A DNA stretch of 64,000 nucleotides, from assembly GCA_000990355.1 (NCBI GenBank), contig LBSX01000002.1, forward strand, positions 6,000-69,999. The letters run 5' to 3'. Origin of the DNA: Candidatus Magasanikbacteria bacterium GW2011_GWC2_37_14. GTDB lineage: Bacteria > Patescibacteriota > Patescibacteriia > Magasanikbacterales > UBA922. The translations under genes and the position numbers were made by a program. Positions 62,038 through 62,888 of this stretch are shown here, one piece after another. How positions within the stretch are numbered: position 1 is the first letter of the stretch; the number at the start of each line of letters is the position of its first letter. Under the pieces are notes generated by a model that worked only from the letters and a program-made list of their open reading frames with translations, was not told the origin of the DNA and did not search any database.

Positions 62038-62888
62038 AAATAATAAATAAAAACTACTGTCGCCTTCCAAATCCTTTTAATTCTTTGTGGTTGTTTGATT
62101 AAGCGATACAACCATTCTAACCCAATTTGACGTAAAAATAAAGGGGCGCGTTTAACAGTTCCGGATATATAATCAAAAGCTCCACCCACACCCATGGCAA
62201 TTCTGACACTTGGTAAGTCTTTTAAATTTTCATTAATCCACTTTTCTTGTTTACCATGACCAAAGGCGACAAAAAGGATGTCTGGGGCCGACATAATAAT
62301 CTGTTGAACAATTTCGTCATTTTCTTCTTTATCATAACTAATCTTGTAATCTTTTAATCTTTTAATCTTCATCCCCTTGTTTAACCCAACGATCTGTAAA
62401 TTTTTAAATTTTTTTCTTAATTCGTCACCTGTCTTTCTTATTACCTCTTCGCTTCCCGACCCTAATAAATATACACTTTTATTCGTTTTCTCTGCGAAAG
62501 CACAAATATCATGCATTAAGTCTATACCAGGGTAACGCGTTATCCTCCTCTTTCTAAGAGGAGGTGGCCGAAGGCCGGTAGAGTTTGCCGGAGTTTCATC
62601 AGCTTCGGCAACTCCCCCCGCCTGCCTTGACGGCATGTCGGGCAGGCCTACCCCCTCTTGGAAAGAGTGGGGCAACCACATTGCTAGCTTTAAACCCGTT
62701 CCATCACAAACATTCAAATCTCCACTATTTAAAACAGTTTTAAAATAGTTGTCTTTTTGCGCGTCAACCAGTATTTCTGGATTAGGGGTAAAAATTTTAT
62801 GCGATTTGTTTGAATTCAAAAATTCAGTAACTTTTTCAAGTACTTCTGTTATTGATAAATTGTCTATTCTTACATTAAGAACGTTCAC
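62016..62888 (-). CDS. WecB/TagA/CpsF-family glycosyltransferase
   Basis: CDGTGLKLA, LLGSGSEEV, VAFGHGKQEKW and MGVGGAFDYISG...GLEWLYRL motifs. GTG start. Confidence 0.8.
   Translation of the reverse strand: MNVLNVRIDNLSITEVLEKVTEFLNSNKSHKIFTPNPEILVDAQKDNYFKTVLNSGDLNVCDGTGLKLAMWLPHSFQEGVGLPDMPSRQAGGVAEADETPANSTGLRPPPLRKRRITRYPGIDLMHDICAFAEKTNKSVYLLGSGSEEVIRKTGDELRKKFKNLQIVGLNKGMKIKRLKDYKISYDKEENDEIVQQIIMSAPDILFVAFGHGKQEKWINENLKDLPSVRIAMGVGGAFDYISGTVKRAPLFLRQIGLEWLYRLIKQPQRIKRIWKATVVFIYYLCFHKKV
62544..62672. repeat. 129-nt composite of GC-rich hairpins inside the wecG/tagA-like gene
   Basis: CCTCCTC/GAGGAGG, GGCCgaaGGCC, GCCTGCC/GGCAGGC and CCCCTCT/AGAGTGGGG hairpins. Encodes about 43 extra residues. 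Confidence 0.8.

What the first reader, a model, noticed from the sequence alone, without database searches (positions are those of the whole stretch)
62544..62672. 129-nt block of four or five GC-rich hairpins adds about 43 residues to a WecG/TagA-type glycosyltransferase
Between the conserved CDGTGLKLAMW and RYPGIDLMHD segments, which I recall as roughly ten residues apart in typical TagA/WecG proteins, the gene carries hairpins CCTCCTC/GAGGAGG, GGCC-gaa-GGCC, GCCTGCC/GGCAGGC and CCCCTCT/AGAGTGGGG. These encode PHSFQEGVGLPDMPSRQAGGVAEADETPANSTGLRPPPLRKRR. The GCCTGCC/GGCAGGC and polypurine/polypyrimidine hairpins are the same module types seen at 1443-1495 and in the helicase gene. The block therefore looks like a concatenation of several mini-elements at one site (nested insertion or a hotspot).
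Basis: partly seen in the sequence, partly recalled or inferred. Interest (0 to 1): 0.6.

Follow-up and report, generated by a model that had tools for sequence, protein, structure and literature searches.

The report
Triplex-motif repeat pair inside TagA gene
A GC-rich 129-base block inside the cell-wall enzyme gene tagA of an AT-rich, ultra-small (CPR) bacterium is an in-frame insertion of two back-to-back copies of a repeat predicted to fold into a DNA triple helix, each carrying one extra small hairpin; it adds a floppy 44-residue loop to an otherwise intact enzyme, a known kind of selfish DNA in a new place.

Summary
Window 62544-62672 is about 62% GC in a 32.7% GC genome (Candidatus Magasanikbacteria). 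It lies in frame in an intact WecG/TagA gene and stretches an 8-10 residue loop to 52 residues.

The block is not five loose hairpins. It is an inverted pair of one repeat unit:
- **Unit layout:** pyrimidine arm, loop, purine arm, short linker, G-rich tail.
- **Tail:** it is the mirror image of the purine arm, as in the intrastrand purine-motif triplex repeats of E. coli (BoxC/PIT/TM_ECO, Holder 2015).
- **Support:** across 107 units from metagenomes the tail obeys the triplex code at 912 of 926 positions. It co-varies with the hairpin (0 of 5000 permutations reach the observed fit).
- **Nested hairpins:** each TagA unit has a small hairpin in its linker. One is a GTAG-tagged GCCTGCC stem-loop, resembling a REP (repetitive extragenic palindrome).

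The syntenic sister lineage has an empty site. Two other TagA lineages carry the same composite at the same codon, and at least seven more carry other hairpin repeats there.

Related units sit in frame in dnaE, gyrB, secA, pheT, ksgA and uvrD-like genes.

Most likely this is selfish, structure-prone DNA translated as a disordered H4-H5 loop. It is a new variant of a known kind.

The parts
62016..62888 (-). Host gene: WecG/TagA-family glycosyltransferase, 290 aa, intact
   Evidence: PF03808 E=3.8e-49. PDB TagA 7mpk E=1.7e-38. The protein keeps all 46 columns invariant in 59 homologues, including D62, which corresponds to the catalytic D65 of T. italicus TagA. In the AF2 model the core has pLDDT above 93.
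62544..62672 (-). The inserted block: an inverted pair of triplex-motif units plus two nested hairpins. It encodes residues 73-115 (PHSF...RKRR).
   Evidence: The block is absent from syntenic L084. In the model residues 72-118 have pLDDT 48-66 and no secondary structure.
62544..62585 (+). Unit 2, a class II triplex motif read on the + strand: Y arm CCTCCTCTT 62544-52, loop 62553-55, R arm AAGAGGAGG 62556-64, linker holding a nested hairpin, tail GGTAGAGTT 62577-85
   Evidence: The generic triplex finder gives 8 of 9 triplets. Coordinates were read.
62566..62576 (.). Nested mini-hairpin GGCCgaaGGCC in the linker slot of unit 2
   Evidence: The same slot holds other small hairpins in L082, L184, L167, L191, L187, L181 and L113.
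62585..62611 (.). Central pairing TTGCCG/CGGCAA. It is formed by the 3' extensions of the two tails (the Watson-Crick alternative to the two triplex folds).
62610..62671 (-). Unit 1, a class II triplex motif read on the coding strand: Y arm CCCACTCTT 62671-63, loop, R arm AAGAGGGGG 62659-51, linker TA plus a nested hairpin, tail GGGGGGAGTT 62619-10
   Evidence: 9 of 9 triplets. There is one A.G mismatch in the Watson-Crick stem.
62620..62648 (-). Nested GTAG-tagged hairpin GCCTGCC-14 nt-GGCAGGC in the linker slot of unit 1 (REP-like)
   Evidence: The coding strand reads GTAG-GCCTGCC...GGCAGGC.
1442..1495 (+). Related single unit, intergenic: CCCTCCCCT-atg-AGGGGAGGG, with the GTAG-CCTGCCTGCC hairpin (1464-1487) in its linker, then tail GGGTGGGGT
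   Evidence: 9 of 9 triplets, and 4 mismatches in 27 to the TM_ECO consensus. Fold z = -2.4.
37917..37948 (-). Related single unit in frame inside the UvrD/AddA-like helicase ORF 37343..40384
   Evidence: 8 of 9 triplets. The ORF is intact with full Pfam domains. L120 carries a full composite at the homologous helicase site.
38421..38445 (+). Solo GTAG-CCTGCCTGCC-ggcga-GGCAGG hairpin in frame in the same helicase ORF
61306..61347 (-). Separate 42-nt GC-rich in-frame insert (CPSAGYPRPELGSK) in the neighbouring SpoU methyltransferase. It contains GTAG-CCTGCC.
   Evidence: Absent in syntenic L084. Sequence. Fold z = -1.7.

Best explanation
The block is selfish, structure-prone repeat DNA that landed in, or has been maintained in, the one loop of TagA that tolerates extra residues. 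It is an inverted (head-to-head) pair of an intrastrand triplex-motif repeat.

**Unit and fold.** Each unit is a 9-bp polypyrimidine/polypurine hairpin followed, after a short linker, by a G-rich tail. The tail is the mirror image of the purine arm. A single DNA strand can therefore fold into a purine-motif triple helix (G.G-C, A.A-T, T.A-T). The complementary strand carries the pyrimidine-motif version.

**Nested hairpins.** Each unit has acquired a self-folding mini-hairpin in its linker. This is the position where an insertion keeps the arm and the tail adjacent. One of the two hairpins is a GTAG-tagged, REP-like GCCTGCC stem-loop.

**Consequence for the protein.** The total is a multiple of three and the reading frame used has no stop. 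The gene therefore stays open, and the block is translated as a roughly 44-residue disordered extension of the flexible H4-H5 loop, just after the catalytic Asp.

**Shown here.** The anatomy; three-way covariation of pyrimidine arm, purine arm and tail; presence/absence polymorphism between sister lineages; recurrence in many essential genes; an intact host protein.

**Inferred.** That a triplex or hairpin forms transiently in single-stranded DNA during replication or repair. That this drives spread, local instability and further nesting. That the insert is translated and neutral or nearly so. The mobilising enzyme is unknown.
For: **Anatomy.** Both TagA units obey the triplex code at 9/9 and 8/9 positions. 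They are the only G/C-rich 9-nt candidates in the window apart from the units at 1442-1495 and 37917-37948.

**Family.** 75 of 110 unique hits have the tail next to the hairpin, and at least 25 have the full composite.

**Covariation.** In 107 distinct units, 912 of 926 arm/tail positions fit the purine-motif code and 96 units fit perfectly. With one representative for each of 28 purine-arm variants, the observed fit is 0.926 against 0.778 +/- 0.018 when tails are dealt at random; 0 of 5000 permutations reach it.

**Known precedent.** E. coli TM_ECO/BoxC is CCCTCNCCC-N3-6-GGGNGAGGG-N3-GGGNGAGGG, class II. It forms a triplex in vitro, often has a TTA second loop, occurs in inverted pairs, and is linked to local instability (PMC4666352).

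**Gain or loss.** Syntenic L084 has empty sites in both TagA and SpoU.

**Same composite, same codon.** L082 and L083 carry it with different or empty linker slots. Each insert-bearing lineage has insert-free sister lineages.

**DNA-level constraint.** Third-codon-position identity is 63-65% in the insert against 42-48% in the core.

**Tolerated in essential genes.** Units lie in long open frames of DnaE, SecA, GyrB, PheT, KsgA and UvrD-like proteins.

**Loop location.** AF2 gives pLDDT above 93 on both sides and 48-66 with no secondary structure across residues 72-118. The homologous H4-H5 loop, residues 74-82 of T. italicus TagA, is flexible in MD simulations (PMC8784642).

**No broken frames.** None of the 78 scorable species-representative TagA loci is broken at this loop.
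Against: - No transposase or other mobilising function was identified. The window was not searched exhaustively for one, and no target-site duplication is visible.
- Holder et al. could not detect the triplex in double-stranded DNA or in vivo, so the fold is a prediction here.
- Covariation counts are inflated by shared descent, and the units were collected with a hairpin-plus-tail filter. The permutation control addresses only which tail goes with which arm.
- Translation of the insert is inferred from the open frame only.
- The same composite at the same codon, in the same orientation and frame, in three lineages is awkward for random insertion. It needs either very strong site filtering, many precise losses, or targeting.
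Confidence: 0.72

Rival explanations
1. The extension is an exapted, functional part of this TagA. [quoted passage not shown] On this view it is retained by selection on the protein rather than being neutral selfish DNA.
For: The loop contacts CTT helix H10' in the substrate-bound state (PMC8784642). The same frame and similar end peptides (LSPS.QEG ... PPLGKRR) are kept in three lineages.
Against: Conservation follows stems and tails, not codons: third positions are more conserved than in the core. The same DNA occurs in intergenic regions, in both orientations, and in other frames in unrelated genes. Most close relatives, including the sister lineage, lack it. The model predicts disorder.
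Confidence: 0.1
2. The element works at the RNA level. The hairpins in the mRNA would act as a translational pause, a stability element or an internal regulatory structure, and that would be why they persist in coding regions.
For: The coding-strand RNA folds to -73.6 kcal/mol, z = -4.4. In L114 and L189 a unit sits immediately upstream of an ATG, and its GGAGGAG could serve as a ribosome-binding site. G.U-compatible asymmetry in the tail-tail helix favours the strand that is the mRNA in TagA.
Against: Units occur in both orientations relative to host genes and in intergenic DNA. Mirror-repeat covariation has no Watson-Crick RNA reading. Purine-motif triplexes are reported not to form in RNA (PMC4666352). 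There is no Rfam family.
Confidence: 0.1
3. The block is removed from expression, for example by translational bypass (as with T4 gene 60 or mitochondrial byp elements) or by RNA excision, so the protein lacks the extra loop.
For: It is a GC-rich, hairpin-rich insert in an AT-rich gene, superficially like byp elements (own knowledge).
Against: The frame is open through the block, there is no in-frame stop, and there are no matching take-off and landing codons (TTG ... ATA). All 10 insert-bearing TagA loci examined are multiples of three and stop-free. The two candidates for a gene split across a unit are upstream-of-ATG or adjacent-gene contexts. There is no intron or ribozyme match.
Confidence: 0.03
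4. The block is an artefact or belongs to a dead gene: a mis-assembly or chimera, or a pseudogene with an intact paralogue elsewhere.
For: The genome is a metagenome-assembled genome. Only 64 kb was visible, so a paralogue cannot be excluded.
Against: The identical gene is present on 8 contigs from three repositories. Homologous composites occur in independent datasets. All invariant residues are retained and the core model is confident.
Confidence: 0.03

Closest known systems
Intrastrand triplex motif repeats of bacteria (BoxC / PIT elements / TM_ECO; Hoyne and Maher 2000; Holder et al. 2015, PMC4666352)
   Same: The order is the same: pyrimidine arm, 3-6 nt loop, purine arm, 2-3 nt loop (often TTA), mirror-image G-rich third strand. 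This is class II, purine motif, with 9-nt stems. Loops are less conserved than stems. Inverted pairs are frequent. No associated transposase is known. Local sequence turnover is seen. The window unit at 1442-1495 is within 4 of 27 positions of the TM_ECO consensus.
   Different: TM_ECO is always intergenic in E. coli. Here units sit in frame inside housekeeping genes of a CPR bacterium. The stem sequences differ (CCYCCTCTT and CCCTCCCCT types). The second loop serves as a slot for nested hairpins. The tails carry a GCCG extension that pairs between the two units of a pair.
Rickettsia palindromic elements (RPE) and intragenic REPs (Ogata 2000; Di Nocera 2013, PMC3733652)
   Same: Palindromic repeats are inserted in frame in functional genes of a reduced, AT-rich genome. 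They add 20-45 residues at tolerated sites. Replication and repair genes are frequent hosts. Singles, groups and dimers all occur.
   Different: There is no sequence relation. RPEs are not described as mirror-repeat or triplex motifs. The host phylum differs. Here the same loop is reused by several repeat families.
GTAG-tagged REPs mobilised by RAYT tyrosine transposases
   Same: The nested GCCTGCC hairpin has a 7-10 bp GC stem with an unpaired 5' GTAG in all four window copies (1464, 38421, 61331 and the coding strand at 62651-62648). It occurs solo, in dimers and inside genes.
   Different: No RAYT was seen. Copy number is unknown. In two copies the GTAG may simply be the G-TA-G linker of the triplex unit.
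Pneumococcal BOX elements and enterobacterial BIMEs
   Same: They are modular mosaics of short structured modules with variable internal modules (own knowledge).
   Different: They are intergenic and have different sequences. No triplex logic has been described for them.
Mitochondrial GC clusters and byp elements of yeasts
   Same: They are GC-rich hairpin elements that invade AT-rich genomes, including coding sequence (own knowledge).
   Different: They are organellar. Byps are skipped by the ribosome, whereas here the frame is open.

Membership tests
WecG/TagA/CpsF glycosyltransferase (PF03808) - host gene | Match to the family profile above the curated cutoff | tested here: met
   167.2 bits against a cutoff of 27.4, E=3.8e-49. 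PDB TagA E=1.7e-38.
WecG/TagA/CpsF glycosyltransferase (PF03808) - host gene | Catalytic Asp (D65 of T. italicus TagA) and conserved C-terminal Arg residues present | tested here: met
   D62 aligns to D65. D62, R247, R269 and R272 are among the columns invariant in 59 homologues. Their roles are taken from PMC8784642.
Intrastrand triplex motif repeat, class II purine motif (Holder 2015) | Order 5' pyrimidine domain - loop (1-6) - purine domain - loop - reverse-Hoogsteen domain, with stems of 8 or more and at most one mismatch | tested here: met
   Units at 62671-62610 (-) score 9/9, 62544-62585 (+) 8/9, 1442-1495 9/9 and 37948-37917 8/9.
Intrastrand triplex motif repeat, class II purine motif (Holder 2015) | The third strand tracks the purine arm (G for G-C; A or T for A-T) across sequence variants | tested here: met
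   912 of 926 positions fit. Across 28 arm variants the observed fit is 0.926 against 0.778 +/- 0.018 permuted, with 0 of 5000 reaching it.
Intrastrand triplex motif repeat, class II purine motif (Holder 2015) | Match to the TM_ECO consensus CCCTCNCCC N3-6 GGGNGAGGG N3 GGGNGAGGG | tested here: not met
   With up to 4 mismatches allowed, only 1443-1495 matches, and only with a 21-23 nt second loop. The TagA units do not match. They are the same class but a different sequence family.
Intrastrand triplex motif repeat, class II purine motif (Holder 2015) | Triplex actually forms | not testable with these tools
   This needs CD, NMR or footprinting. For TM_ECO it was shown in vitro only.
GTAG-tagged REP (Di Nocera 2013) - nested GCCTGCC hairpin | 20-40 bp GC-rich stem-loop with an unpaired GTAG at one end | tested here: met
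   GTAG lies immediately 5' of the stem in all 4 window copies. A decayed fifth copy near 47250-47272 has TTAG.
GTAG-tagged REP (Di Nocera 2013) - nested GCCTGCC hairpin | High copy number and an associated RAYT transposase in the genome | not tested
   Only 64 kb of the genome was visible. 15 ORFs were scanned against Pfam and none is a transposase. The remaining ORFs were not scanned.
MITE | Terminal inverted repeats plus a target-site duplication | tested here: inconclusive
   The ends TCCYCCTCTT...AAGAGGRGGA are inverted repeats. No duplication is visible in the flanks of 25-27 composites.
Programmed translational bypass (T4 gene 60 / byp) | Matched take-off and landing codons, and a stop or frame break within the gap | tested here: not met
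   The frame is open with no stop, and the flanking codons TTG and ATA differ.
Any curated RNA family (Rfam 15) | Score at or above the gathering threshold | tested here: not met
   Only tRNA-Asn passes in the window. The best hit on the block is engA RNA at 16.4 bits against 46. No consistent family appears across 8 related loci.

The most novel reading that the evidence does not exclude
Intrastrand triplex-motif repeats, known only as intergenic curiosities of E. coli and cyanobacteria, may be an active, structure-selected mobile family in Patescibacteria. On this reading they systematically colonise single permissive loops of essential proteins (TagA H4-H5, GyrB, SecA, UvrD-like, DnaE). Their single-stranded linker would act as a preferred landing pad for further hairpin elements. 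The three-way covariation would then be evolutionary evidence that the triple helix forms in vivo. Recurrent same-codon occupancy would reflect targeting, or structure-induced repair errors, rather than tolerance alone.
Probability: 0.3. Interest if true: 0.7.

Novelty: new variant of a known kind. Interest (0 to 1): 0.5.

Why it matters
**For the triplex repeat class.** The repeat class has been known for 25 years without a demonstrated function or proof that the triplex forms in cells.
- Here many sequence variants keep pyrimidine arm, purine arm and mirror tail matched.
- They tolerate only self-folding insertions in the linker.
- This is the kind of evolutionary signal that would argue the fold matters in vivo, and it gives concrete oligonucleotides to test.

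**For CPR biology.**
- Minimal genomes still carry selfish repeats inside essential genes.
- Some lineage-specific insertions in CPR proteins are repeat DNA rather than adaptations.
- Annotation and protein-family alignments of these organisms should mask such inserts.

**For TagA.** The H4-H5 loop next to the catalytic Asp can take at least 44 extra residues.

Tried and rejected
1. **Rfam.** The gathering scan of the window, and E-value scans of the block and of 8 related loci, gave no family. Hits to engA RNA and to microRNAs fall far below threshold.
2. **Protein search with the three aligned insert peptides.** Nothing was found, so the element could not be traced at peptide level.
3. **Polypurine target site.** Empty loops are 59.5% purine against 55.6% for the gene, and 45% of same-size windows are at least as purine-rich. 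This was rejected.
4. **Frame-breaking copies (bypass or splicing).** None occur at the TagA loop in the 78 scorable of 80 loci. The two candidates among the metagenome hits for a gene split across a unit are upstream-of-ATG or adjacent-gene contexts.
5. **Target-site duplication or a common flank motif.** None was seen.
6. **Watson-Crick covariation as a test of the hairpins.** I dropped this as circular, because hairpins were selected by complementarity. I used arm-versus-tail permutation instead. The first two versions of that script mis-set arm boundaries, and only one search is used.
7. **The first regex for units.** It was too strict and returned 11 units. It was replaced.
8. **The GC island at 9996-10087.** It is not part of this family. 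It has no hairpin excess (z = -0.2) and no Rfam match.
9. **Literature on such inserts in CPR.** Four searches found nothing specific. Absence from this library is not proof of absence.
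Full report
**Organism and host gene**

The window is 32.7% GC. It belongs to a Candidatus Magasanikbacteria (CPR/Patescibacteria) metagenome-assembled genome of the GW2011_GWC2 series.

ORF 62016..62888 on the minus strand encodes a 290-aa WecG/TagA glycosyltransferase. The Pfam PF03808 match has E=3.8e-49, and solved TagA 7mpk matches at E=1.7e-38.

The neighbourhood is ClpB, DUF5654, TagA, SpoU methyltransferase, a 132-aa ORF with no Pfam match, GltX and an M23 peptidase.

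- Against 7mpk, query residues 69-116 correspond to chain residues 72-81.
- In 66 of 80 species-representative Magasanikbacteria loci the spacer from CDGxG to R[IY]PG is 24-30 nt. Here it is 156 nt.
- The closest relative with DNA in hand, L084, has the same gene order and 78% core identity. It has a 24-nt spacer, a 250-aa TagA and a 250-aa SpoU. Both GC-rich inserts of the window are absent there.
- GC-rich perfect hairpins number 24 in the window against 0-2 in shuffles.
- The block folds far better than shuffles: z = -4.4 as RNA and -4.9 as DNA.
- The identical protein is on 8 contigs from three repositories.

**Anatomy of the block**

Two other TagA lineages, L082/P0004 and L083/P0115, carry a homologous composite at the same codon, in the same orientation and frame. 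Comparing the three separates conserved from variable parts.

- **Conserved:** a first hairpin TCCCCCTCT-loop-AGAGGGGG; then GGGGGAGTTGCCG ... CGGCAA(A)CTCC; then a last hairpin CCTCCTCTT-nnn-AAGAGGAGG.
- **Variable:** two slots, one after the first hairpin and one before the last.
- **First slot:** a GTAG-GCCTGCC hairpin in the window, GCCCgcaGGGC in L082, and nothing in L083.
- **Second slot:** GGCCttcGGCC in the window, a GTCCC...GGGAC hairpin in L082, and nothing in L083.

**The repeat family**

I scanned metagenome contigs for CCTCCTCTTNNNAAGAGGAGG.

- 75 of 110 unique hits have GGAGGAGTT-like sequence next to the hairpin, or its complement on the other side.
- At least 25 show the full composite, in unrelated contexts.
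- Many hits are single units: hairpin, a 1-4 nt linker (TA, TTA, CAG), then the tail.
- The composite is therefore two units head to head. What looks like a middle hairpin is the two tails pairing with each other.

**The tail mirrors the purine arm**

Across 110 distinct units the tail changes whenever the hairpin changes:

| Purine arm | Tail |
|---|---|
| AAGAGGAGG | GGAGGAGTT |
| AAGAGGGGG | GGGGGAGTT |
| AAGAGGGAG | GAGGGAGTT |
| AAGGGGGAG | GAGGGGGTT |
| AAGGGGAGG | GGAGGGGTT |
| AAGAGAGGG | GGGTGAGTT |
| AGGGGAGGG | GGGTGGGGTT |

The tail is the reverse, not the complement, of the purine arm, with A or T opposite A. That is the code of an antiparallel purine-motif triple helix (G.G-C, A.A-T, T.A-T).

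- In the 107 units that could be scored, 912 of 926 positions fit and 96 units are perfect.
- With one representative for each of 28 arm variants, the fit is 0.926. When tails are dealt at random it is 0.778 +/- 0.018, with a maximum of 0.849, and 0 of 5000 permutations reach the observed value.
- Shared descent inflates such counts. The permutation tests only which tail goes with which arm.

**This class is already known**

Holder et al. 2015 (PMC4666352) describe intrastrand triplex motifs.

- Their E. coli TM_ECO (formerly BoxC, or PIT elements) is CCCTCNCCC-N3-6-GGGNGAGGG-N3-GGGNGAGGG.
- It is a class II purine motif, usually with TTA in the second loop.
- It is often found in inverted pairs and is always intergenic in E. 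coli.
- It forms a triplex in vitro, but none was detected in duplex DNA or in vivo.
- It is associated with local sequence turnover.

A finder for this architecture locates exactly four G/C-rich 9-nt candidates in the window:

- 1442-1495 (+), intergenic, 9/9. It is within 4 of 27 positions of the TM_ECO consensus, and its linker holds a GTAG-CCTGCCTGCC hairpin.
- 37948-37917 (-), in frame in the UvrD/AddA-like helicase, 8/9.
- 62544-62585 (+), 8/9, in the TagA block.
- 62671-62610 (-), 9/9, in the TagA block.

In 438 kb around TagA in 83 relatives there are 15 raw hits in 5 loci, against none in shuffles. L063 has a pair at a second site of TagA.

**The nested hairpins**

Both extra hairpins of the TagA block lie in the arm-to-tail linker of their unit. 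The same slot holds diverse small hairpins in other copies (L082, L087, L113, L126, L128, L167, L184, L187, L191).

A self-paired insertion there brings the arm and the tail back together. The pattern therefore fits either of two readings:
- selection to keep the triplex geometry; or
- preferential insertion into the unpaired linker.

The GCCTGCC hairpin also occurs alone at 38421-38445 in the helicase. Another GTAG-CCTGCC copy lies in the SpoU insert. All four window copies have GTAG immediately 5' of the stem. This is the defining tag of GTAG REPs, which are known to occur inside genes as singles and dimers encoding 20-30 residues (PMC3733652). No RAYT transposase was seen, but only 15 window ORFs were scanned.

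**Consequence for the protein**

- The window protein keeps all 46 residues that are invariant in 59 homologues, including D62, the equivalent of catalytic D65.
- The AlphaFold model has pLDDT above 93 on both sides of the insert. Across residues 72-118 it is 48-66 with no secondary structure, between helices 64-71 and 121-134.
- In T. italicus TagA this is the H4-H5 loop, residues 74-82. It is flexible in MD simulations and is contacted by helix H10' of the C-terminal tail (PMC8784642).
- Related units lie in long open frames of DnaE, SecA, GyrB, PheT, KsgA and a UvrD-like helicase. Several sit at the same site in different lineages, and they occur in both orientations and more than one frame.
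- No frame-broken TagA was found at this loop.
- The simplest reading is that the block is translated as a tolerated disordered loop, as with Rickettsia palindromic elements.

**Hotspot**

- About 20 of 120 TagA homologues have some insert in this loop.
- These include at least three repeat types: the triplex composite, GTCATTGCGAGG...GCAATC hairpins (some with a nested inner hairpin), and others.
- They are scattered over at least 9 places on a rough neighbour-joining tree. Other sites in the protein are hit far less often.
- The three composite-bearing lineages each have insert-free sisters. The history is therefore either repeated gain at one codon or one old gain with many precise losses.
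- Third-codon-position identity is higher in the insert (63-65%) than in the core (42-48%). That points to DNA-level constraint or to more recent arrival.
- A purine-rich target at the empty site is not supported.
- Tolerance of the loop, plus instability caused by resident structured repeats (as reported for TM_ECO), is the most economical account. Targeting cannot be excluded.

**Verdict**

The thing itself is an in-frame inverted pair of a known class of repeat (the intrastrand triplex motif), decorated with REP-like hairpins.

What is new:
- the host phylum;
- the coding location in essential genes;
- the use of the linker as a nesting slot;
- the breadth of arm/tail covariation.

The mechanism of spread and the formation of the triplex in cells remain inferred.

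Noticed in passing
window 61306-61347 (-), SpoU methyltransferase ORF 61243..62070: A second in-frame GC-rich insert of 14 residues (CPSAGYPRPELGSK) lies just before the conserved GQAESLNV motif. It is absent in syntenic L084 and shorter in L082. It contains GTAG-CCTGCC. Its fold is only weakly better than shuffles (z = -1.7).
   Followed up: partly
window 52385-52438 (+), alpha/beta-hydrolase ORF 52185..52955: Two small hairpins lie in frame about 18 nt apart: TTCCCGCgaagGCGGGAA and TCCCCGTtttcACGGGGA, encoding HSREGGNL...DPRFHGDD. They resemble the widespread 'SRFRGND'-type repeat peptides. This is probably another repeat insertion in a coding region.
   Followed up: no
window 9996-10087, between tRNA-Asn (9865-9937, -) and ORF 10221..10778: This is a 92-nt island at 65% GC in intergenic DNA. 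It has no Rfam match and no excess folding (z = -0.2 and +0.3). Its nature is unknown.
   Followed up: partly
window 47250-47272, just downstream of the GreA ORF 46708..47244: A decayed copy of the GCCTGCC hairpin. The reverse strand reads TTAG-CCTGCCTGCC-agta-GGtAG. It suggests that these hairpins erode in place.
   Followed up: no
window 530-1072 and 46708-47244: Two GreA/GreB-family paralogues are encoded in the same 64 kb.
   Followed up: no
L114 about 6018-6060 and L189 about 1011-1055 (metagenome loci): A single triplex unit sits directly upstream of an ATG (CCTCCTCTTTCCAAGAGGAGGcaGGAGGAGTTGCCGAAGyTATGAC). Its GGAGGAG tail could double as a Shine-Dalgarno sequence.
   Followed up: no
L063 2956-3034 (TagA match 2501-3370): This Magasanikbacteria TagA carries a GTCATTGCGAGG-type hairpin in the H4-H5 loop. 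It also carries an inverted pair of triplex units at a second site, around residue 150-180.
   Followed up: no
L082 3058-3414: A gene with 23S_rRNA_IVP / bAvd-like Pfam hits (the accessory protein type of diversity-generating retroelements) lies two genes downstream of the insert-bearing TagA.
   Followed up: no
L175, L178, L192, L112, L089, L113 (metagenome loci): In one group of contigs the composite is itself embedded in a larger element. That element is flanked by inverted repeats (ttacgaaatgaaa ... tttcatttcgtaa and ggattatag ... ctataatcc). It looks like nested repeats of another family.
   Followed up: no
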